Origin: a virus
Taxonomy: Duplodnaviria; Heunggongvirae; Uroviricota; Caudoviricetes
Length of the DNA stretch: 64,000 nucleotides
IMG/VR virus record: IMGVR_UViG_3300021255_000128
Location: 1-64,000 of that record
Reading direction: 5' to 3' (one strand)
Shown piece after piece: positions 15,834 to 41,657 of this stretch (position 1 is the stretch's first letter; each line of letters begins with the position of its first letter). Made by a program: the position numbers and the translations under genes. The notes beneath the pieces were generated by a model. It was not told the origin of the DNA, did no database searches, and saw only the letters and a program-made list of their open reading frames with translations.

Positions 15834-16260
15834 AATTTCCATTGTATTTTTATTAAAGTACATGTTCCAAATTGTTAAAATTATGCAATCCTACGAACGT
15901 AGAATGAAACGTGGTACTCTTGGTGCAAAGCACAAGACTACCAAAAATCGTAAAGGTCAGCAGTATCGTATGCAGCTGATTACAATGTCCAATGTAGCTT
16001 CTGATGCAAATCAGAAACTTAACAAAACTCTATTCCACTATAATCCCGATTTTTAATATGGAAAAGCTTTATGGACTTTATTGTGTGATTTCTAACAAGA
16101 CTGTTAGAAGGAACGAAAAGAAATATAAGCGTTTCAAAAAGGATGGTGTTCCTGGAACTCTTGTAAAGACCAATCGTGGTTATTTTATCGATGGAAGAGA
16201 AGTCGATAAGAAATCCGTAGATACTTTCTTTGCTTTGTATAAAGCAAAGTAAATAATATT

Positions 16261-16375
16261 TGGGCAGTCGTCTAATGGTTAGGACACGTAAGTTTAGTAA
16301 TGATTCATTACTTACAATCTCGTTAACTGTTATCCTGTGGAGATCGTGATTTAGGTTCGAATCCTAGCTGCCCGA
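16261..16375 (+). ncRNA. tRNA-like gene with oversized central region (~115 nt)
   Basis: Good acceptor (TGGGCAG/CTGCCCG), D arm (GTCT-AATGGTTA-GGAC) and T arm (TTAGG-TTCGAAT-CCTAG). Between them lie two 5-bp stems, each enclosing 18 nt (GTAAG..CTTAC and ATCTC..GAGAT), instead of a 7-nt anticodon loop. Confidence 0.4.
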
Positions 16376-16623
16376 CTAATTTTAAAACAAATAATTATGA
16401 TTATATTTATTACAATAATATTACTTTTAATAGCGTGGCTATTATTATATATCGCATTATATCCAAGAGTCGGATATACTTATAAAGATGATTATCAGAA
16501 TTTAGTTAGAATAACTAATGTAAATGGATTTATTGTTACACTTGTTTACATTTTAGATGATGGACAAGAAGTAACAAGTCCTCAAAACTGGGATCTAATT
16601 GAATTTATAAAAACTTTTAGTCT

Positions 16624-17785: not shown

Positions 17786-19606
17786 ATGGTACAAGTAGAA
17801 TTTAATAAGAAGCAAGAAAATCCTTTCTATAAGCTTCAACATTGTCTTTCTATCTTCCAAGGAACTTCAATTACTGAAGGTTTACTTGATCGAGCCTGGC
17901 TTGAGGTTAGAGATGACAAAATAAAGAAAGAGATGTTTTATTCTCTTCTGTTTTCTATTGGAGATATTACCAATCGAGAGCATAATATCTTCCATAATAA
18001 GAAGATAGATTCTGGTGGTCAGGCAAGACGTTCAGAATTCTTTACTATTATGAATTGGATGATTAAAACAGATTACGAACAATTCAAGAAATTCCTTTTT
18101 GCAGGATTGTTTGATGAATATACTTGTTTTGATCATCTTTTCAAGAATAGAGTTCAAACCGCTCCAAAGACAAATCGAATAATTGCTGTTTATTCGATGC
18201 TTTCTAACGAGAAATATCGTCATGATCTTTCTGATTATGTGGTTAGCATTGTAAATGGCAAGAATCCATTTAAGAAGCAGCTTGTTGCAAAGTTTTTGAC
18301 GCTTCCTCGATTGGGCAAAAGAAGTAATCACAAGCAAATGATGGAGCCGACATTTAAGGCAATGAAGGATAAAGCATTGTTCTTAAAGGAAGTTTCTGAT
18401 AAGCTTGGATGGGAATATATCTTTACTAACAATTTCTGCAATTTTATTGGTTATCGTCACTGGAGAAAGGATTATAATTCTGATCTCGAGTCCGTTCTTT
18501 TCTCTACTGGAAAGATTAATGACTTTGATCAGGTAAGCTTTGTAGAATGGCTTGATAAACTTCCATCTCAGGCAAGATTCCGGGTTAAGAATCGTATATT
18601 CTATTCAAAGGATGCAAATGAAAACCTTAAGTGGAAGAAATTCCAGGATTGGTATACATCTTGGGAGAAATCTAAGGAATGTGCTCAAGCTGAACAGCGA
18701 GTTCTTCAGGAGAAGGTGAGACAGGGAATTGCTTCTATTGAAGATAAGGTCCGCCTAGAACAAGTAAAGAAAGAGGCAAAGGTTAATACTGGCGCTACTA
18801 ACTTTGATTCACTTTATCAGGAAATTCTTCGCGGAAATCCTGATAAATTGAAACTAGAAGCATTTGTTCAGAATAAGGTTAATCTTCCTTTCAATTTCTT
18901 AACTATTGTTGATGAGTCTGGTTCAATGCAGGGTGCACCATTCAATTTTGCAACATTCTTGGCTTCTGTACTTTTGTATAAGAATCCCGATGATATTGCG
19001 AGGAATTTGATTGGATTATTTGCTAATGAATCTAGATTTGTTTCAGCAATTGATAAAAGAGCATCAAGTATGCCTAATTCTTTCTGGACAAGAGCTACTG
19101 TAGCAGATATAGTTCCTGAACCATTTATTGTTCCAGAGATGAGTTTCTACGACAATTATCGGAGAATTTCAACATATCTCAGAACAATTTTTAGAAGTGG
19201 TGGAACTCATATTAATTCATTAGCTACAAGACTTAAAGAAATTTACTCAAGTAATCCTGAACTTATAGATGAACTTGCTAATTATCCTGTGTGGGTAATT
19301 TGTAGTGATGGAGACTTAAATAATAGTTTCTATGCTAGAGATTCAATTCTTGAACTTCAGCACGCTTGTAAGCAATACTTAGGTTTTGTTCCTTATCTTG
19401 TGATTATTGAGATTCAAAATTGGAATAACTATAATATCAATCATTTTGCAGATCTTGATCAGGTAATGTATATTCCTGGAAAGGTTGAACTGATTGAGCA
19501 AATGTTATCTAATTTTAGAGATATTGATGTCTTTGATGTCTATACTCCACTTCTCTCAATTTACCGAAGTAATAGATACGAATTAGTTAGAAATAATGTA
19601 ATTTAA
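17786..19606 (+). CDS. large vWA-domain protein
   Basis: MIDAS-like LTIVDESGSMQG. 606 aa. Confidence 0.55.
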   Translation: MVQVEFNKKQENPFYKLQHCLSIFQGTSITEGLLDRAWLEVRDDKIKKEMFYSLLFSIGDITNREHNIFHNKKIDSGGQARRSEFFTIMNWMIKTDYEQFKKFLFAGLFDEYTCFDHLFKNRVQTAPKTNRIIAVYSMLSNEKYRHDLSDYVVSIVNGKNPFKKQLVAKFLTLPRLGKRSNHKQMMEPTFKAMKDKALFLKEVSDKLGWEYIFTNNFCNFIGYRHWRKDYNSDLESVLFSTGKINDFDQVSFVEWLDKLPSQARFRVKNRIFYSKDANENLKWKKFQDWYTSWEKSKECAQAEQRVLQEKVRQGIASIEDKVRLEQVKKEAKVNTGATNFDSLYQEILRGNPDKLKLEAFVQNKVNLPFNFLTIVDESGSMQGAPFNFATFLASVLLYKNPDDIARNLIGLFANESRFVSAIDKRASSMPNSFWTRATVADIVPEPFIVPEMSFYDNYRRISTYLRTIFRSGGTHINSLATRLKEIYSSNPELIDELANYPVWVICSDGDLNNSFYARDSILELQHACKQYLGFVPYLVIIEIQNWNNYNINHFADLDQVMYIPGKVELIEQMLSNFRDIDVFDVYTPLLSIYRSNRYELVRNNVI

Positions 19607-19702
19607 TTTGCATTATTAAAAATTAATTTTTATCTTTGCAATCTTAATCCTCTGTTGTGTGATAATAGCAGAGGGTTCCATAAGACACTTACAACGTTTT
19701 AT

Positions 19703-19790
19703 AATTTTTTACACGAGTTCGAGTCTCGTATTGTTCACCATTTTTTCGAACGATTCGCCTAGTGGTTTTGGCAAAATTATAAGTGTCTTT
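19703..19790 (+). ncRNA. candidate permuted/split tRNA: 3' half (anticodon 3' strand, T arm, acceptor 3' strand, CCA) upstream of 5' half (acceptor 5' strand, D arm, anticodon 5' strand)
   Basis: 3' half: AATTT, ACGAG-TTCGAGT-CTCGT, ATTGTTC-A-CCA (19703-19740). After TTTTTT, the 5' half: GAACGAT-TC-GCC-TAGTGGTTTT-GGC-A-AAATT (19748-19778). The acceptor strands pair 7/7 (one G-U) and AAATT/AATTT pair 5/5. Confidence 0.4.
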
Positions 19791-19919
19791 TTATTTTTGA
19801 TTTAAGCCCTACTATTCCCTGGTTAATGTAAAAGATTATTCTTCACAAGCGCGCAGTCTAAGATTAATCATTTTAATCAAAGTAGTAGGTAGAAATATAA
19901 TATGTCACATACAATACTA

Positions 19920-19992
19920 ACTGTTTTAGCTCATTAGGTAGAGCGTCCGACTTATAATCAGAATGCAGTTGGTTCGATTCCAACAAACACTT
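19920..19992 (+). tRNA. tRNA-like, anticodon TAT (Ile-AUA type), imperfect
   Basis: D GCTC/GAGC and T GTTGG-TTCGATT-CCAAC are good. There is one C-C mismatch in the acceptor stem and one C-A in the anticodon stem. Loop is CTTATAA. Confidence 0.4.
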
Positions 19993-20318
19993 ATTTTGTG
20001 ACATAGACTTATAAAGGAGGGTGAGGGAGTGGCAAATCCCATCTATTGTAATGGGTCAGAAGTTGATCGCGGGTGACCGAATAATAAAGGATTAACGCCA
20101 TTGAACGATAGGAAAGTAGGTATGTAGCTACGATATAAAATGAATCCTACACTCACGGACTTCCGGGTTTCTTAAAGTCTTTCCTCCGGCTGATGAAATA
20201 AGACTTTTTAAGACCTTTCTTCCATTTTATATAAAATGTAACTTACAACTGTAAAACGTTCGCTGAATCGTATATCAGCTCCATGAAATTAGTATTACTT
20301 TTAAGTTACATTTAAAAT

Positions 20319-20390: not shown

Positions 20391-20398
20391 CTAAACAT

Positions 20399-20577
20399 AG
20401 CGGGATGATAGCAGTGGTAGCTAGACAGTCTCAATACAGTTTAACTCACTGTAACGAGTTAGTCTAATAGGTGCAAGTAGTGGACACCGGTGAATGGGTA
20501 ATTTGCCGAGCGTAGGTGCAAGTCCTACATTAGACTCTAAGCTGTAGGTCCCTGGTTCGATCCCAGGTCCCGCTACC
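20399..20577 (+). ncRNA. tRNA-like gene with ~100-nt central insertion and encoded CCA
   Basis: Acceptor AGCGGGA/TCCCGCT-A-CCA, D arm TAGC-AGTGGTA-GCTA, T arm CCTGG-TTCGATC-CCAGG. The middle contains ACAGT[18 nt]ACTGT and a long helix AGTCTAATAGG/CCTACATTAGACT. Confidence 0.4.
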
Positions 20578-20791
20578 ATTATGATACTTATAATACTATA
20601 TTAAAACAATAATCTTTTAAATTATGTAGTTGAAACAAGTATCATTGAAACTTAATATTTTAATGTGAAACAAAGTATCTAAAGACGTTTAGAGAAACGA
20701 AGTAACCGGGTTTGGCTACAACCACACTGGAAGAAACCAAAAAGCACAGTGTTTAAAGAGGTACCTGGGAACAGAAACCCTCTTTATTTAT

Positions 20792-23375: not shown

Positions 23376-23467
23376 GGGAATGTAACGGCGCAGGTCTGTA
23401 AAATCTGTCCTTTATAATCTGCCGTATTGGTTTAAGGTAAAGCGGTTCGAATCCACTCATTCCCACA
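23376..23467 (+). ncRNA. atypical tRNA-like element with Tyr-type anticodon hairpin (loop CTGTAAA) but no normal D arm
   Basis: Acceptor GGGAATG/CATTCCC-A, T AGCGG-TTCGAAT-CCACT (one mismatch), hairpin CAGGT-CTGTAAA-ATCTG directly after pos 9. An extra ~33 nt precedes the T arm. Confidence 0.35.
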
Positions 23468-23487
23468 AACAATTAAATTATTTATGA

Positions 23488-23889
23488 ATGACTAATAAGC
23501 AACTAGGAAGAATTGGATTAAGTATGGCCATAAACTATTTTACAATTGCCGGTTATACTGTTTCTTTACCAATTAATGATACGCAATGATATGATTTAAT
23601 TATAGAAAAAGATGGAGTTATCGAAACAGTTCAATGTAAATGTACAGATACTGATGAGGGAAGTATTGATTTAAGAAGTAAAGGAGGAACAAATGGAGGT
23701 GTTTATGACAATGTTATAGAACATGAACAATTAAATTGATTATTTTGTGTTGATAAAAATAGAAAATGCTTTTTAATTCCGGTTAAAGATTTAATTGGTA
23801 ATAATGTCCACCATTCCATTCGTTTAAGATATGAAAAAACTGTAAACGGACAGGGTTTTCAAACATTTCCTTATTTATTAAATATTTAA
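23488..23889 (+). CDS. putative PD-(D/E)XK-type endonuclease with two in-frame TGA codons
   Basis: WYDLIIEKDG...ETVQCK reads as a D-E-K motif. Sits between tRNA-like elements. Trp fits at both TGA positions. Confidence 0.45.
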
Positions 23890-23941: not shown

Positions 23942-24028
23942 GGAGAGTTGGCCGAGTGGTTGATGGCACCAGTCTTGAAAACTGGCTTACTCTTAGGGGT
24001 AACGGGGGTTCAAATCCCTCACTCTCCG
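23942..24028 (+). tRNA. tRNA-Ser (anticodon TGA), type II
   Basis: Acceptor GGAGAGT/ACTCTCC-G, D GCC-GAGTGGTTGAT-GGC, anticodon stem CCAGT/ACTGG with loop CTTGAAA, long variable arm, T GGGGG-TTCAAAT-CCCTC. Confidence 0.85.
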
Positions 24029-25799: not shown

Positions 25800-25937
25800 C
25801 AGTAAATGCACAATTTTTGGCGCTTTACCAGAGAAATCTAAGGTAGAAGACGTTTTAAACGGGTAGGCTAACCGTCCTGCGAGGGTCGAAATTGTATTAA
25901 ATTTAAAGTTAATGATACTTACAATGCTATAAAACAA

Positions 25938-26008
25938 TATAAATTCGTCTAGTGGTTGGACACAATTTTTGGGTAATTGCAACATAGGTTCGATTCCTAT
26001 ATTTATTA
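25938..26008 (+). tRNA. second tRNA-like with anticodon TGG; weak all-AT acceptor stem
   Basis: D GTC-TAGTGGTTG-GAC, anticodon stem CAATT/AATTG with loop TTTGGGT, T ATAGG-TTCGATT-CCTAT. Mismatch at acceptor pair 1-72. Confidence 0.35.
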
Positions 26009-26025
26009 GTTAAGTATCATATAAT

Positions 26026-37697: not shown

Positions 37698-38318
37698 ATG
37701 AAAATAGTTGATAATTTTGATCTCTTTCGAGAGAAAATGAATTGGAATTCACCCGATGAATTCTATTTCGTACAAATTCTTATTAGAGGAAAAGATGGAC
37801 ATACGGAACCAGGAGTAAATGGGAATAATAAGAATAGATTGATTAAGATTTATACGGTTAGATCTTTAGAGGATTTAAATAAGTTTGAACCTGAAATTAA
37901 ATCTATTTGTGAAGCCATTAATGGGAGAGCGTATATCCATCCTACTAAAAGGAGTTTTAATGAAGTTGCAGATGAATGTTTACGTGTAACTACTGATGTT
38001 TATCTTTCTAAAACAAATAATGTAGGATTAAAAGCAGCATATTCTACAGCTTGCGGAAAATCATTTATATCATCTGATAAGAAATTTATTATTGATTTGG
38101 ATGACGACGATGTTAATAAAAAAGATGAAATTATTGAATTTATAGAATATCATTGTGAACCATTTAATTGTATAAAATATCAATATGATGTTCCAACTGC
38201 ACACGGTATTCATTTAATAACGCGTGCGTTTAATCGTCAGAAATTTTGTGAGCATTTTCCAGGAATAGATGTTCATACAAATAATCCGACATTGCTATAC
38301 TTTAAATGTTTAAATTAA
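37698..38318 (+). CDS. hypothetical protein
   Basis: 206-aa ORF. Confidence 0.5.
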   Translation: MKIVDNFDLFREKMNWNSPDEFYFVQILIRGKDGHTEPGVNGNNKNRLIKIYTVRSLEDLNKFEPEIKSICEAINGRAYIHPTKRSFNEVADECLRVTTDVYLSKTNNVGLKAAYSTACGKSFISSDKKFIIDLDDDDVNKKDEIIEFIEYHCEPFNCIKYQYDVPTAHGIHLITRAFNRQKFCEHFPGIDVHTNNPTLLYFKCLN

Positions 38319-38759
38319 TCTCCTAACAATATAAGGCACTTACAATACAAAATTGCTATTGATTCGATCAATTACTTAATATTTAACAACTCTATGCTGG
38401 TCATAGCGTGCGACACGCGTTAGTTTCCGTATCTAAAATACGTTATTTAAGTGGCTTGTAAGTGAAAAGTAACTTTCAGTGCCTTTTTAGATTTATTTTA
38501 ACAATATTTTTAAATCAAATGCCTAAGGTATCTGATTATGAACTTGAACATTTATCTGATAATGAATCTAATTTTCAGAAAGTTCGTAGTAAAAAACCTA
38601 AATCTTTAAAAGAACCAAAATACCCGGATAAAAAGAAAAATCGGGAAAAGAAAATTGACTTTTGAGATTTAGAAGAAAAAGAGTTTTAAAAGTTAATGAT
38701 ACATACAAATAAAAATCATTTATATTGCATTAATATTACTTGATTTGTATCATAAATAT

Positions 38760-38831
38760 GTGGTTGTTACGCCAGTGGTAAGCGGACAGATTGTGGCTCT
38801 GTTGAGATCGGTTCGATTCCGATACAATCAC
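38760..38831 (+). tRNA. tRNA-His (anticodon GTG) with G-1
   Basis: Extra 5' G pairs with discriminator C. Anticodon stem ACAGA/TCTGT with loop TTGTGGC. T ATCGG-TTCGATT-CCGAT. Confidence 0.75.
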
Positions 38832-39326: not shown

Positions 39327-40407
39327 TTTTGATAGGTATTACATATCTCCTGCATTAGTTTCTGATATAGAACATCGCTCAGAGTGTGTACCTTATTATA
39401 ACGCTTTTTATTCTGATGAACAAGGTGGTTGGTGTTTAAGTGGAGCTCATCTTCCAATCTTTGTTGCACCAATGGCATGTATTATTGATGAACATAATTA
39501 CATGAAATTTGATAATGAAGGATTAAATCCAATTATTCCAAGAACTGTTGATTTTCAGAAGAGACTTGAAATAATGAAACAGATGATTTGGATTGCTGTT
39601 GGATTAGATGAATTGGATTGGATTATTGATAATTATGAGCATTTTGATTCAGAGGTTTATATTTGTGTGGACATTGCAAATGGGCACATGAGAAAACTTC
39701 TTGATAAATGTAAGCAAGCAAAGCTTAAATTTGGACAAAATCTAAATTTAATGGCTGGTAATATTGCAAATCCATATACATATATAGAATATGCGAAAGC
39801 TGGCATTGATTATGTTAGATGCACTATTGGTGATGGACAAGCTTGTGCTACTGCTGATCTAACAGGAATTAGTCAGAATACACCAGAATTTATTAATGTT
39901 ATTAAAAAAATTAAAACATCGATTACAGAAAATTTTATAGAAAATAAAGAATATCTTTCTATTCCTAAAATTGTAATTGATGGCGGTATTTCTAAAATTA
40001 GAGACATTGTTATTGCCCTTGCCCTTGGTGCTGATTATGTAATGTGTGGAAAGATTTTTGCTCAATCTGAAGAAGCTTGTGGAGAAATCTTTGAAAAATT
40101 AATACCTGTAACAAGAGAGGAAATTTGTGATACATGTATTCCGAAAAAGATTAATACAGTAACTGTATCAGAATGGATTCCTGGAAGAATGTATTATGGA
40201 ATGTCTACACAGCGCGCTCAAAAAGAAATGGGAAACAAGCGATTAAAATCTTCTGAAGGTTATGAATATTGGGTTCCTATTGAATATAAACTTTCGGATT
40301 GGGTAAAACAATTTGTTGATGTGATAGCTTCTACAATGAGTTATTGTAATTGTACTCAACTTGGAGAATTTATTGGAAAAGTCGCTTGGCTTGAATATAA
40401 AAAATAA
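39307..40407 (+). CDS. IMP dehydrogenase/GMP reductase family TIM-barrel protein (GuaC-like)
   Basis: VDIANGH (cf. DTAHGH), catalytic-loop-like TIGDGQACATADLTG, and IVIDGGISKIRDIVIALALGADYVMCG (cf. IADGGI..GDI.KALAAGA..VM.G). Confidence 0.6.
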   Translation: MKKSMSSFDRYYISPALVSDIEHRSECVPYYNAFYSDEQGGWCLSGAHLPIFVAPMACIIDEHNYMKFDNEGLNPIIPRTVDFQKRLEIMKQMIWIAVGLDELDWIIDNYEHFDSEVYICVDIANGHMRKLLDKCKQAKLKFGQNLNLMAGNIANPYTYIEYAKAGIDYVRCTIGDGQACATADLTGISQNTPEFINVIKKIKTSITENFIENKEYLSIPKIVIDGGISKIRDIVIALALGADYVMCGKIFAQSEEACGEIFEKLIPVTREEICDTCIPKKINTVTVSEWIPGRMYYGMSTQRAQKEMGNKRLKSSEGYEYWVPIEYKLSDWVKQFVDVIASTMSYCNCTQLGEFIGKVAWLEYKK

Positions 40408-40464
40408 ATTTGGAAAATTAAAATATTTTTCGTAACTTTGTTTTATGATACTTATAATCCTAAT

Positions 40465-40544
40465 TAATTGTTGGTTCGAATCCAACTTCTGCTTTATCTT
40501 AGCTGAATGGCGAAATTGGTTTACGCGAATGACTTGAAATCATT
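40465..40544 (+). ncRNA. second candidate permuted/split tRNA (T arm plus acceptor 3' strand, then acceptor 5' strand, D arm and anticodon arm with loop CTTGAAA)
   Basis: GTTGG-TTCGAAT-CCAAC-TTCTGCT-T (40470-40494), a 6-nt spacer, then AGCTGAA-TG-GCG-AAATTGGTTTA-CGC-G-AATGA-CTTGAAA-TCATT. The acceptor strands pair 6/7. No T arm follows the 5' half and no 5' half precedes the 3' half. Confidence 0.35.
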
Positions 40545-40620
40545 TTTTATTAATAAGTATCATTTAAAAATAACTGTTTGTCTCAACAGTAAAATGAGAT
40601 GTTAGCATTCATAGTGTTCC

Positions 40621-40660
40621 TCAACGCAATGCGCATTAAAGCGTTGAGGAATTTTCTATG
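40621..40660 (+). other. strong hairpin (9-bp stem CCTCAACGC/GCGTTGAGG) upstream of an HNH gene
   Basis: Inverted repeat read from the sequence. Terminator or processing-site candidate. Confidence 0.4.
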
Positions 40661-40699
40661 AAGAAGAAAGAGACTTATTAAATAATTAAATTGTTATGA

Positions 40700-41563
40700 A
40701 TGTTAACAAAAGATGATTTAACTCCAGAATTATTACAAAAAGAATTTGATTCTGGACTTTGACACATTGAAATAGGAGAAAAATATCATGTGTCATCAAG
40801 AACTATTTATGATTACGTTAAGAAATGAAATCTAAACGTTCCTCGTAAAAATAAAAAGAAAGAGGTTATAAAATTTGTATGTAAAAATTGTGGCAAAGAA
40901 TTTACTAAACTTGAACCAGAGGGTATTTGTTGAAACTGTAAACAAAAAAGAGATACTTTAGTAAACCAAGTACCTATTGAAAATAATAGTAATAGTAAAT
41001 ATCTTACAAATGTTTTAAAATTAAGAGCTGAAGGTTTATCTTATAAAAAGATTGCTGAAAAACTTGGGTGTAGTACATCAACGATATCTTATTTGTTATC
41101 AGATAAAACTAGAGAAAAACGCAAAGTACGATTAGAAAAATATAAAGACAATTGATATTTTTATTTAAAAAGACGTTTATCTGATTTTAGAACTAGAACT
41201 CCTGGCAATAATGTGACAATTAAGTGTGTCGATTGAAAAATAAAATTACAAAAAGGAATACAACGATTTAAAAATAGAAATAATATTATGCCTACGACAA
41301 ATTTTACATACAAAGATGTTCTTGATAAATTTGGAACAGTTGTTCAATGTGAACTAACCGGTAGAACAATTGATTTAACCAAAGATGATTACAATATTGA
41401 TCATATTATACCAGTTTCAAAAGGTGGTACAAATAATTTAGATAATTTAGCTTTTACCACTCCTGAAGCAAATGCTGCCAAAAATGGGCTTACCAATGAA
41501 GAGTTTGTAGCATTATGTAAAGAGGTTTGTGAACATTTTGGGTATACGGTAGTAAAAAATTAA
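40700..41563 (+). CDS. HNH endonuclease with HTH domain and 6 in-frame TGA codons
   Basis: LuxR/sigma-like HTH LSYKKIAEKLGCSTSTISYLL. HNH DHIIPVSKGGTNNLDNLAFTTPEANAAKNG. The frame is continuous only if TGA is sense. Confidence 0.7.
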
Positions 41564-41580
41564 TATAACATAAAAATATT

Positions 41581-41657
41581 CGTCTTGTCGTCCAATGGAA
41601 TTAGGACAGCTGTCTTCAAAATAGCCAATCAGGGTTTGAGTCCTTGCAAGACGACCA
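41581..41657 (+). tRNA. opal suppressor tRNA (anticodon TCA, reads UGA); Trp-like; CCA encoded
   Basis: Acceptor CGTCTTG/CAAGACG-A-CCA, D GTCC-AATGGAATTA-GGAC, anticodon stem GCTGT/ATAGC (one G-U) with loop CTTCAAA, T CAGGG-TTTGAGT-CCTTG. Confidence 0.75.

What the first reader, a model, noticed from the sequence alone, without database searches (positions are those of the whole stretch)
40465..40544. Second 3'-half / 5'-half tRNA pair in permuted order
GTTGG-TTCGAAT-CCAAC-TTCTGCT is followed after 6 nt by AGCTGAA-TG-GCG-AAATTGGTTTA-CGC-G-AATGA-CTTGAAA-TCATT. The acceptor strands pair 6/7. The 5' part has a complete D arm and anticodon arm (anticodon TGA) but no T arm after it. The 3' part has no 5' partner upstream. 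This is the same architecture as at 19703-19790, which argues against coincidence.
Basis: seen in the sequence. Interest (0 to 1): 0.6.

Follow-up and report, generated by a model that had tools for sequence, protein, structure and literature searches.

The report
Permuted tRNA gene in a phage
A gut-type crAss-like phage carries a conserved gene in which the back half of a tRNA comes before the front half and the two RNA ends are clamped by a conserved helix, a layout known from algal and archaeal permuted tRNAs and from bacterial Ro60-bound Y RNAs but not described for phage tRNAs.

Summary
Window 40445-40563 (+) encodes a 119-nt RNA in this order: terminal-helix strand, T arm, acceptor 3' strand, 7-nt linker, acceptor 5' strand, D arm, anticodon arm (UGA), terminal-helix strand.

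A covariance model built only from distant relatives scores the unit 99.9 bits (E about 1e-17). Forty distinct relatives show 94% pairing, and 23 of 30 pairs change on both sides.

All 37 units from the structural scan that carry the flank motif have U33 and a purine at position 37, and they follow the same N36/N37 rule as 303 normal phage tRNAs.

These phages also encode a very divergent Ro60-like protein (window 17786-19606). Permuted units cluster just downstream of it, and the sibling unit 19682-19789 lies 79 nt after it. That is the layout of YrlA-type Y RNAs.

The same helix also brackets normal tRNAs. In closed form it interrupts others, for example 16261-16375, which suggests cut-and-join processing.

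Best reading: a genuine permuted tRNA(-like) gene, opened at the acceptor loop by RNase P and CCA maturation. Whether it decodes, and whether the ends are ligated or stay as two pieces, is not settled. I rate it a new variant of a known kind.

The parts
40409..40440 (+). Bacteroidota-type promoter-like elements: TTTG (40409-40412), a 20-nt spacer, then TAACTTTG (40433-40440). This would put the transcript start at about 40445.
   Evidence: Read. The same arrangement (TTTG ... TAACTTTA) lies before the orthologue in L001. The consensus -33 TTTG / -7 TAnnTTTG is from my own knowledge of Bacteroides promoters. The sigma-70 scan is uninformative.
40445..40455 (+). 5' strand of the terminal helix, ATGATACTTAT. 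The core ACUUA is invariant across the family and the outer bases covary.
   Evidence: MFE fold. Helix pairs with changes on both sides. Predicted independently by RNAalifold.
40456..40469 (+). A/U-rich connector between the helix and the T stem. It starts AAT here, after the helix's closing T40455; relatives have CAA directly after ACUUA. The last base, T40469, occupies position 48.
   Evidence: In my reading of those parses, the base before the T stem tracks position 15: most units have A15 with T48, and two of the three units with G15 have C48, as a Levitt pair would.
40470..40486 (+). T arm, GTTGG-TTCGAAT-CCAAC.
   Evidence: Rfam tRNA model positions 46-63. 99.5% paired in 40 relatives.
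40487..40494 (+). Acceptor 3' strand TTCTGCT plus the discriminator-position T. No CCA is encoded.
   Evidence: All 7 acceptor pairs change on both sides in relatives.
40495..40500 (+). Linker TATCTT that closes the acceptor stem. This is the presumed RNase P and 3'-end maturation substrate.
   Evidence: Linkers are 2-11 nt in relatives. Cleavage is inferred from M. smegmatis YrlA (PMC4201824).
40501..40507 (+). Acceptor 5' strand, AGCTGAA.
40508..40527 (+). U8, G9, D arm GCG-AAATTGGTTTA-CGC (with GG), and G26.
   Evidence: All three D-stem pairs have changes on both sides in at least one relative.
40528..40544 (+). Anticodon arm AATGA-CTTGAAA-TCATT: U33, anticodon UGA (40535-40537), A37.
   Evidence: 37 of 37 relatives have U33 and R37. 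The N36/N37 rule matches normal tRNAs.
40545..40552 (+). A/U-rich connector between the anticodon stem and the helix.
   Evidence: Length is variable (6-18 nt) and the sequence is unconserved in relatives.
40553..40563 (+). 3' strand of the terminal helix, ATAAGTATCAT.
40617..40657 (+). Terminator-like hairpin TTCCTCAACGC / GCGTTGAGGAA followed by TTTTCT.
   Evidence: Read. The simple scan missed it because the loop is 13 nt.
17786..19606 (+). Divergent Ro60-like protein (helical-repeat region plus vWA domain with a DESGSM MIDAS motif). Candidate partner of the helix-bearing RNAs.
19682..19789 (+). Sibling permuted unit, 79 nt after the Ro60-like ORF. Same helix (AAGACACTTA / TAAGTGTCTT), T arm, 7-bp acceptor stem, encoded ACCA and D arm. 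The break lies in the anticodon loop.
   Evidence: Synteny is kept in L244, L245 and L246.
16261..16375 (+). Normal-order tRNA interrupted by the closed form of the same helix. Removing 16290-16332 gives a perfect CGATC-CUGUGGA-GAUCG arm (anticodon GUG).
25912..26020 (+). Normal-order tRNA-Pro(UGG) enclosed by the same helix, ATGATACTTA ... TAAGTATCAT.
   Evidence: 55 of 318 normal tRNAs in related loci are enclosed in the same way.

Best explanation
Window 40445-40563 is a genuine, selectively maintained gene for a circularly permuted tRNA-like RNA of a large crAss-like (Crassvirales) phage that reads TGA as Trp.

Shown: the RNA folds into a complete cloverleaf. The acceptor stem is closed by a 7-nt linker. 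The chain ends lie in the variable region and are clamped by a 10-11 bp helix whose core (ACUUA / UAAGU, followed by CAA in relatives) is conserved across the family. The anticodon loop obeys tRNA rules.

Inferred:
- Transcription starts at the helix, from a Bacteroidota-type promoter.
- RNase P cuts before A40501. The linker is trimmed and CCA is added. This yields a tRNA body with a free acceptor end, as demonstrated for Mycobacterium smegmatis YrlA.
- The terminal helix then does one of two things. It may keep the two pieces together as a nicked tRNA. Or it may mark the place where the ends are trimmed and joined, as sibling genes would require, because in them the same helix sits inside the anticodon loop or stem.
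- The phage's own Ro60-like protein, next to which such units cluster, is the most likely helix-binding partner. That makes the system a tRNA-shaped relative of Ro60/Y-RNA particles.
For: Structure and significance:
- The independent model R2 gives 99.9 bits, E = 1e-17.
- In 40 distinct relatives 94.1% of cells pair, against 67.5% after shuffling and 38-45% with slid partners. 23 of 30 pairs change on both sides.
- RNAalifold on an unfitted alignment recovers the terminal helix, the T arm and the closed 7-bp acceptor stem.
- Orthologues found by synteny alone (L001, L002) show compensatory changes in the acceptor and D stems.

tRNA-like constraints:
- 37 of 37 units have U33 and R37.
- N37 follows N36 as in 303 normal phage tRNAs (Fisher p = 7e-4).
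- In my reading of the parses, position 48 tracks position 15.
- NCCA is encoded in 8 of 37 type-2 units and 6 of 8 type-1 units, against 18 of 310 normal tRNAs.
- In the four genomes with the fullest tRNA sets, the permuted anticodon is absent from the normal set.

Ro60 link:
- The fold matches Ro60.
- 37 of 52 Ro60-like loci have a permuted unit downstream on the same strand, 27 of them within 1 kb. There are 63 downstream hits against 3 upstream.
- All 8 large contigs with permuted units that I could check also encode the protein.

Precedent: YrlA is cut by RNase P and receives CCA, and its halves stay bound to Rsr (PMC4201824).

Cut-and-join hint: the same helix in closed form interrupts normal-order tRNAs, and removing it restores perfect cloverleaves.
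Against: - There is no RNA-level data. Transcription, RNase P cleavage, CCA addition, aminoacylation, Ro60 binding and ligation are all inferred.
- The base at the discriminator position is unlike that of normal tRNAs (T in 43% against 18%; chi-square p = 2e-4), and it often does not fit the anticodon's expected identity.
- In this lineage the anticodon duplicates a normal tRNA: Ser UGA at 23942 in the window, and His GUG in L002.
- Orthologues carry different anticodons (UGA, AGG, GUG) on a nearly constant body.
- The canonical Ro-binding motif GNCGAAN0-1G is absent.
- This unit lies 20.8 kb from the Ro60-like gene.
- No RNA ligase, RtcB or splicing endonuclease was found among about 65 window ORFs.
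- No single rule places the splice sites relative to the helix.
- Many relatives were collected with structure-aware scans, which inflates the pairing statistics somewhat.
Confidence: 0.72

Rival explanations
1. Ligated decoder. The terminal helix and the A/U-rich connectors behave like a split intron. They are cut off and the ends joined, giving a circular intermediate, and RNase P plus 3' maturation then release a contiguous tRNA(UGA) that is charged and used in translation. This is the algal and archaeal pathway with a different recognition motif.
For: - The same helix in closed form interrupts normal-order tRNAs at 28/29, about 32/33, 38/39 and in the D loop, where removal is indispensable.
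- Type-1 units are split at 33/34. If joined, they give anticodon loops with U33 and the correct N37 in 5 of 5 cases that parse.
- The connector lengths of type-2 units match those of the intron tails.
- The anticodon-loop rules are kept.
Against: - No ligase or endonuclease was found in the window.
- No BHB motif is present.
- Splice positions are not fixed relative to the helix.
- Three of the 8 type-1 units do not fit the simple 33/34 rule: two do not parse at all and one fits only after shifting the anticodon stem by one position.
- The discriminator pattern is atypical.
Confidence: 0.35
2. Two-piece tRNA. After RNase P and CCA maturation the two fragments stay base-paired through the 7-bp acceptor stem and the 11-bp terminal helix. 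The helix projects like a long variable arm, and the nicked molecule works without ligation, like two-piece tmRNA.
For: - The break lies in the variable region, the one place where an extra arm is tolerated in class II tRNAs.
- The D stem is 3 bp with a 10-11 nt loop, as in class II tRNAs.
- M. smegmatis YrlA persists as two halves (PMC4201824).
- No ligase was found.
Against: - The connectors between the core and the helix are long (6-18 and 13-24 nt), asymmetric and unconserved, so the helix is only loosely tethered to the core.
- This mechanism cannot serve the type-1 units or the interrupted genes that share the same motif.
- No unpermuted counterpart with a closed hairpin in the variable region was found.
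Confidence: 0.25
3. Pure Y-RNA-type mimic. The RNA never decodes. It binds the phage Ro60-like protein through the terminal helix and uses its tRNA shape to recruit or distract tRNA-handling proteins, for example exoribonucleases, modification enzymes or host anticodon nucleases.
For: - The architecture and the Ro60 linkage match those of YrlA.
- Discriminator bases are atypical.
- The anticodon varies among orthologues and duplicates normal tRNAs in this lineage.
- Phage phiLo Ro60 binds phage Y-like RNAs and host PNPase (PMC12135203).
Against: - U33 and R37 are universal, and the N36/N37 correlation is the signature of decoding tRNAs.
- The acceptor stems are strictly 7 bp, and NCCA is often encoded.
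- Elsewhere the permuted anticodons complement the normal set.
- The GNCGAA motif is absent.
Confidence: 0.25
4. Non-functional remnant: a decayed tandem tRNA duplication, an attP-like tRNA fragment, or a DNA-level inverted-repeat (MITE-like) element that happens to bracket tRNA pieces.
For: - The 3' half is identical to the 3' end of a tRNA-Met in unrelated IMG/VR contigs.
- The helix motif is repeated many times in these genomes, including around short inserts with no obvious content.
Against: - All five helices are conserved with compensatory changes across relatives whose Ro60-like protein is only about 50% identical to the window's.
- 37 of 37 units have U33 and R37.
- The promoter is placed exactly at the helix.
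- The motif shows a strand bias of 657 to 277.
Confidence: 0.03

Closest known systems
YrlA-type bacterial and phage Y RNAs with Ro60/Rsr (Chen et al. 2014, PMC4201824; phage phiLo Ro60, PMC12135203)
   Same: The 5' and 3' ends pair in a long stem. Inside it sit a T arm, an acceptor stem closed by a loop and a D arm, in the same permuted order. The genes lie next to a Ro60 gene on the same strand. M. smegmatis YrlA, which has a 7-bp acceptor stem, is cut by RNase P and receives CCA.
   Different: In YrlA the stem replaces the anticodon arm and a V arm is present. Here the anticodon arm is complete and tRNA-like, and the stem emerges from the variable region. The GNCGAAN0-1G Ro-binding motif is absent and is replaced by ACUUA-CAA / UAAGU. 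The Ro60-like protein is too divergent for the Pfam TROVE model. There are several units per genome with many different anticodons.
Circularly permuted tRNA genes of Cyanidioschyzon merolae and other algae, and of Thermofilum (from my own knowledge; reviewed in PMC3400036 and PMC4238349, which one search listed but I did not read)
   Same: The 3' half comes before the 5' half with a short linker. The ends of the precursor pair. The same end motif also occurs as an intron in normal-order tRNA genes of the same genome. Break points vary between genes.
   Different: Those genes use the bulge-helix-bulge motif, the splicing endonuclease and RtcB-type ligation through a circular intermediate, in eukaryotes and archaea. 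Here the host is bacterial, there is no BHB motif, no endonuclease or ligase has been identified, and ligation is unproven.
'Enigmatic' short introns in tRNAs of Prevotella Lak megaphages (Devoto et al. 2019, PMC6784885)
   Same: Short, non-group-I insertions in phage tRNA genes of Bacteroidota phages, including a tRNA-like sequence nested inside a tRNA (compare window 20398-20572).
   Different: That paper does not mention permuted genes, a shared helix motif or a Ro60 link. I did not test whether Lak introns carry the ACUUA/UAAGU helix.
Two-piece (permuted) tmRNA
   Same: The gene order is acceptor/T-arm piece first and 5' piece second. The intervening segment is cut out, and the pieces work while held together by base pairing.
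   Different: There is no tag reading frame, no pseudoknots and no G3-U70 pair. ARAGORN, which searches for permuted tmRNA, makes no call here.

Membership tests
Canonical tRNA (Rfam RF00005 / ARAGORN) | A contiguous 5'-to-3' cloverleaf that scores above the gathering threshold | tested here: not met
   The 5' part scores 20.4 bits and the T arm 13.3 bits, against a gathering score of 29. ARAGORN makes no call.
Canonical tRNA (Rfam RF00005 / ARAGORN) | Conserved tRNA nucleotides: U8, G18G19, U33, R37, T-loop TTCRA, and the 15-48 pair | tested here: met
   All are present in the window unit. U33 and R37 are present in 37 of 37 relatives. The 15/48 relationship is my reading of the parses.
Circularly permuted tRNA gene (algal/archaeal type) | The 3' half lies upstream of the 5' half on one strand with a short linker, and together they form a full cloverleaf | tested here: met
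Circularly permuted tRNA gene (algal/archaeal type) | Bulge-helix-bulge motif (3-nt bulge, 4-bp helix, 3-nt bulge) at the precursor ends | tested here: not met
   The ends form a continuous 10-11 bp helix with long, asymmetric unpaired connectors.
Circularly permuted tRNA gene (algal/archaeal type) | The same end motif is used as an intron in normal-order tRNA genes of the same genome | tested here: met
   Window 16261-16375, and at least 53 ARAGORN intron candidates in relatives that carry the motif.
Circularly permuted tRNA gene (algal/archaeal type) | A circular intermediate and a ligated mature tRNA, with a splicing endonuclease and ligase available | not testable with these tools
   No RNA data are available. 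There is no EndA, RtcB or Rnl Pfam hit among the window ORFs scanned. The rest of the genome and the host were not examined.
YrlA-type Y RNA | A terminal 5'/3' stem enclosing a tRNA-like domain with a T arm, a D arm and a loop-closed acceptor stem | tested here: met
   Definition from PMC4201824.
YrlA-type Y RNA | Encoded within about 4 kb of a Ro60/TROVE gene on the same strand | tested here: inconclusive
   At family level this is met: 36 of 52 loci have a unit within 4 kb and 27 within 1 kb. This particular unit lies 20.8 kb downstream. The sibling 19682-19789 lies 79 nt downstream.
YrlA-type Y RNA | The GNCGAAN0-1G (CGAA) Ro-binding motif in the stem region | tested here: not met
   The only CGAA is in the T loop. 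The stem consensus is aaGcUACUuaCAA ... uaAGUAgCuu.
YrlA-type Y RNA | The stem occupies the anticodon-arm position and a V arm is present | tested here: not met
   In this unit the anticodon arm is complete and the stem leaves from the variable region. The sibling at 19682 does have the stem in the anticodon position.
YrlA-type Y RNA | Physically bound by Ro60 | not testable with these tools
   This needs EMSA or co-immunoprecipitation.
Ro60/TROVE protein (for ORF 17786-19606) | A helical-repeat ring plus a C-terminal vWA domain with a MIDAS motif | tested here: met
Two-piece tmRNA | A tag reading frame, pseudoknots and the G3-U70 alanine identity pair | tested here: not met
   Pair 3-70 is C-G. 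There is no ARAGORN tmRNA call and no Rfam tmRNA hit at this locus.

The most novel reading that the evidence does not exclude
Large crAss-like phages of Bacteroidota run their own tRNA cut-and-join pathway. A conserved helix (ACUUA-CAA / UAAGU) marks the places where tRNA genes are interrupted or circularly permuted. A divergent phage Ro60 binds that helix and presents the RNA for trimming and ligation. The pathway yields working tRNAs, including this tRNA(UGA), from disrupted genes. That would be the first enzymatic-type tRNA splicing and the first permuted tRNA genes in the bacterial and phage world. It would also give Ro60/Y-RNA particles a direct role in making tRNAs.
Probability: 0.3. 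Interest if true: 0.92.

Novelty: new variant of a known kind. Interest (0 to 1): 0.8.

Why it matters
Permuted and protein-spliced tRNA genes are regarded as archaeal and eukaryotic features. Bacterial Ro60/Y-RNA particles are known tRNA mimics whose purpose is still unclear. This family sits between the two: RNAs with the Y-RNA layout and Ro60 linkage that keep every hallmark of a decoding anticodon arm.

- If they decode, standard annotation undercounts phage tRNA repertoires. ARAGORN and Rfam miss every unit, and suppressor tRNAs that other authors reported as missing in recoded crAss-like phages could be hiding in this form.
- If they are joined, bacteria-infecting viruses have a tRNA splicing route that nobody has described.
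- If they are only mimics, they are the most complete tRNA mimics known for Ro60, with anticodon loops that vary between phages. That would point to an arms race with anticodon-directed host nucleases.

Each of these outcomes can be tested directly with RNA-seq of a cultured relative.

Tried and rejected
- A conventional tRNA or a nearby partner half: ARAGORN and Rfam, at the gathering score and at E up to 10, give nothing.
- A known ribozyme or other Rfam family at 40300-40700, 19550-19900, 16200-16440 or 38300-38780: nothing credible.
- An attP or host-tRNA fragment: the exact 3'-half match to a tRNA-Met in six IMG/VR contigs covers only the T arm and acceptor strand. The contexts are unrelated, so I judged it convergence.
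- Annotated relatives in GenBank phages: there is no DNA match. Only distant protein matches appear, to crAss-like DNA polymerases at about 43% identity and to Lak or cr108 dehydrogenase-like proteins.
- The pattern GATACTTA-N80-110-TAAGTATC gave mostly chance hits and had to be filtered by content.
- ARAGORN as an oracle for splice sites was too permissive: every offset was accepted. A strict cloverleaf parser resolved only 24 of 53 genes and showed no fixed distance between the helix and the splice sites.
- My first rule, that the 5' exon ends at U33 just before AAGU, holds for 5 of 8 type-1 units, one of them only after shifting the anticodon stem by one position.
- A search for normal-order genes with the closed hairpin in the variable region found none.
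- Pfam scans of about 65 window ORFs found no RNA ligase, RtcB, CCA-adding enzyme or splicing endonuclease. They did find HNH and PD-(D/E)XK homing-type nucleases, NUDIX, metallophosphoesterases and a replication module.
- A profile search of the Ro60-like family against PDB sequences found nothing. Only fold comparison revealed Ro60.
- Ten paper searches found no report of permuted tRNA genes in bacteriophages or of Ro60 in crAss-like phages.

Full report
**Context.** The window is AT-rich (32% G+C). Almost all genes are on the + strand, and ORFs become much longer when TGA is read as Trp. It carries 19 ARAGORN tRNAs, including a UCA-anticodon suppressor at 41581. Its DNA polymerase is about 43% identical to those of crAss-like phages. 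No close relative exists among GenBank phages. Relatives are IMG/VR and ENA contigs of 95-185 kb. This fits the large, recoded, intron-rich crAss-like groups described by Yutin et al. 2021 (PMC7886860) and in PMC12386605, neither of which mentions permuted tRNAs.

**The observation.**
- T arm, 40470-40486
- acceptor 3' strand, 40487-40493
- seven unpaired bases, 40494-40500
- acceptor 5' strand, 40501-40507 (6 of 7 pairs)
- D arm, 40510-40526
- anticodon arm, 40528-40544, with loop CUUGAAA

ARAGORN and Rfam see no conventional tRNA and no conventional partner half.

The minimum-free-energy fold contains this helix together with all four arms. A Bacteroidota-type promoter (TTTG, 20 nt, TAACTTTG) ends 4 nt before the helix. 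The same promoter precedes the L001 orthologue. A terminator-like hairpin follows at 40617-40657. The promoter consensus is from my own knowledge.

**Conservation.**
- The upstream IMP-dehydrogenase-like gene led to two syntenic contigs. Both have the same permuted unit in the same place, immediately before the suppressor tRNA. In the window an HNH ORF (40682-41560) has been inserted between the unit and that tRNA.
- These orthologues show compensatory changes in acceptor pairs 1, 5 and 7 and in the D stem. Their anticodon loops differ: CUUGAAA, AUAGGGU and CUGUGGA.
- Pattern scans and a structure-aware scan then found more units: 40 distinct hits in 2.9 Mb, and none in shuffled sequence. Of the 40, 37 have ACTTA[CT]A just upstream, a feature the scan did not require.
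- A covariance model made from 42 relatives, excluding the window lineage, scores the window unit 99.9 bits (E = 1.1e-17) and the 19.7-kb locus 61.4 bits.
- On 40 distinct relatives 94.1% of cells pair. That compares with 67.5% after shuffling and 38-45% with partners slid by 1-3 columns. 23 of 30 pairs change on both sides, including all 7 acceptor pairs and all 5 anticodon-stem pairs.
- That alignment is fitted to the model. However, RNAalifold on a plain MAFFT alignment independently predicts the terminal helix, the T arm and the loop-closed 7-bp acceptor stem, and 14 of its 17 pairs are compensated.

**Is it tRNA-like beyond shape?**
- All 37 units have U33 and a purine at position 37.
- N37 depends on N36 exactly as in 303 normal tRNAs of the same loci. 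N36 = U gives A37 in 15 of 15 units, N36 = G gives G37 in 5 of 6, and N36 = A gives A37 in 11 of 14 (Fisher p = 7e-4).
- In my reading of the parses, the base before the T stem tracks position 15, as a Levitt pair would.
- Sixteen different anticodons occur. UGU and GAA are the commonest.
- In the four genomes with the most complete normal sets, the permuted anticodon is missing from the normal set. The sample is small and only suggestive.
- NCCA follows the acceptor strand in 8 of 37 units, against 18 of 310 normal tRNAs.

Against a standard decoder: the discriminator position is T in 43% of units (18% in normal tRNAs; p = 2e-4) and often does not fit the anticodon. In the window lineage the anticodon duplicates a normal tRNA.

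**The Ro60 connection.** The permuted order (stem, T arm, acceptor 3' strand, loop, acceptor 5' strand, D arm, stem) is that of YrlA-type Y RNAs (PMC4201824).
- The 606-aa ORF ending 79 nt before the sibling unit has no Pfam hit and about 1,200 unannotated homologues.
- Its AlphaFold model (pLDDT 81) has Xenopus Ro60 as its only full-length Foldseek hit (2i91_B, E = 6e-6).
- Among 52 IMG/VR loci encoding this protein, 37 have a permuted unit downstream on the same strand: 27 within 1 kb and 7 within about 105 nt. There are 63 downstream hits against 3 upstream. tRNA genes in general lie downstream, so part of this asymmetry is regional.
- All eight large contigs that hold permuted units and could be checked encode the protein.
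- In M. smegmatis, YrlA has a 7-bp acceptor stem, is cut by RNase P, receives CCA, and stays bound to Rsr as two halves. This is direct precedent for the first maturation steps proposed here.

Differences from YrlA: the GNCGAAN0-1G motif is absent, and the anticodon arm is present instead of a V arm.

**The helix is a general mark of disrupted tRNA genes.** The same helix has an invariant inner ACUUA/UAAGU and covarying outer bases, and is usually followed by CAA on the 5' strand. It appears in several settings:
- It encloses normal-order tRNAs, in 55 of 318 cases. An example is window 25912-26020.
- It encloses short inserts with no obvious tRNA content (20236-20311 and 20581-20645) and a conserved 105-nt RNA (38333-38457).
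- It also occurs in closed form (UAAGU strand, small loop, ACUUA strand, CAA tail) inside normal-order tRNA genes. Window 16261-16375 is one of these. ARAGORN finds nothing in it as it stands. After I removed a 43-nt segment (offset by a few bases from 16290-16332), ARAGORN called tRNA-His(GUG) with one mismatch. The strict cloverleaf search identifies 16290-16332 as the single best excision, which gives a perfect CGAUC-CUGUGGA-GAUCG arm. Three homologous genes in other phages are broken at the same place, 28/29, and restore Asp, His and UCA anticodon arms.
- In type-1 permuted units the 5' half ends at U33. In 5 of 5 cases that parse, the five bases before the 3' stem strand would complete loops with correct N37: UUU, UGG, GUU, GUA and UAA.

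These genes make sense only if RNA ends are joined. The same logic links BHB introns and permuted tRNAs in algae and archaea. However, splice positions are not at a fixed distance from the helix, and no ligase or endonuclease was found in the window. Devoto et al. 2019 reported "enigmatic" short introns in Lak phage tRNAs without explaining them.

**Verdict.** The finding is a real, conserved, permuted tRNA-like gene.
- The most economical mechanism for the first steps is transcription from the adjacent promoter, folding, opening of the acceptor loop by RNase P, and 3' maturation with CCA addition. These steps are inferred, with experimental precedent in YrlA.
- What happens at the terminal helix is open. 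I give about 0.35 to ligation, 0.25 to a two-piece tRNA and 0.25 to a non-decoding Ro60-bound mimic.
- I file it as a new variant of known kinds (permuted tRNA genes and YrlA-type Y RNAs), not as a member of either, because a defining feature of each was tested and not met: the BHB motif, and the GNCGAA motif with the stem in the anticodon position.

Noticed in passing
window 16261-16375: A normal-order tRNA (Rfam 33.9 bits) interrupted after position 28 by a 43-nt insert that carries the closed form of the flank helix (TAAGT..TAATGA-tt-TCATTACTTA-CAAT...). Removing 16290-16332 gives a perfect tRNA(GUG) anticodon arm. Homologues in L114, L249 and L292 are broken at the same place.
   Followed up: yes
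window 17786-19606: A 606-aa ORF with no Pfam hit whose predicted fold is Ro60-like (helical repeats plus a vWA domain with a DESGSM MIDAS motif). About 1,200 unannotated homologues occur in large phage contigs.
   Followed up: yes
window 20398-20572: An RNA of about 175 nt that looks like a tRNA (acceptor AGCGGGA/TCCCGCT, then ACCA; D arm; T arm CCTGG-TTCGATC-CCAGG). It contains a second, nested tRNA-like element at 20462-20536 (Rfam tRNA 21.8 bits). ARAGORN does not call it. A homologue is present in L002 near 4196. It recalls the 'tRNA inside a tRNA intron' of Lak phages.
   Followed up: partly
window 38333-38457 (and L001 5030-5154): A conserved 105-nt non-tRNA sequence enclosed by the same helix (AAGGCACTTA ... 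TAAGTGGCTT). It has no Rfam match at E up to 1.
   Followed up: partly
window 20236-20311 and 20581-20645: Two helix-enclosed inserts of only 56 and 45 nt with no tRNA parts. Similar 'empty' units occur in L026, L162 and L230.
   Followed up: no
window 25912-26020 and 19902-20004: The normal-order tRNA-Pro(UGG), which has an all-A/U acceptor stem, and tRNA-Ile(UAU) are each enclosed by the same type of leader-trailer helix. 55 of 318 normal tRNAs in related loci are enclosed in the same way.
   Followed up: partly
window 40682-41560: An HNH-endonuclease ORF that contains in-frame TGA sits between the permuted unit and the UCA suppressor tRNA (41581-41657). In L001 and L002 the unit and the suppressor tRNA are directly adjacent, so this is a recent mobile insertion.
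   Followed up: partly
window 40470-40493 vs L003-L008: The T arm plus acceptor 3' strand is identical over 21 nt to the 3' end of a normal tRNA-Met(CAT) in unrelated IMG/VR contigs. That tRNA's 5' acceptor strand AGCAGAA differs by one base from AGCTGAA here.
   Followed up: partly
window 20654-20785: A weak hit to the permuted (alpha-proteobacterial) tmRNA model: 17.5 bits against a gathering score of 50. Relatives L074, L083, L268 and L289 have ARAGORN tmRNA calls, but the window has none.
   Followed up: no
whole family (for example window 40445-40455): The 5' helix strand consensus GAUACUUAC contains AUACUUAC, which as I recall is the 5' end of U1 snRNA. Its partner UAAGUAUC resembles a consensus 5' splice site. 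This is probably coincidence.
   Followed up: no
window 23386-23886: A PD-(D/E)XK endonuclease ORF (PF11645, the I-Ssp6803I homing-endonuclease family) lies inside the tRNA cluster between tRNA-Phe and tRNA-Ser. An ORF of the same family occupies the same region of an NCBI relative.
   Followed up: no
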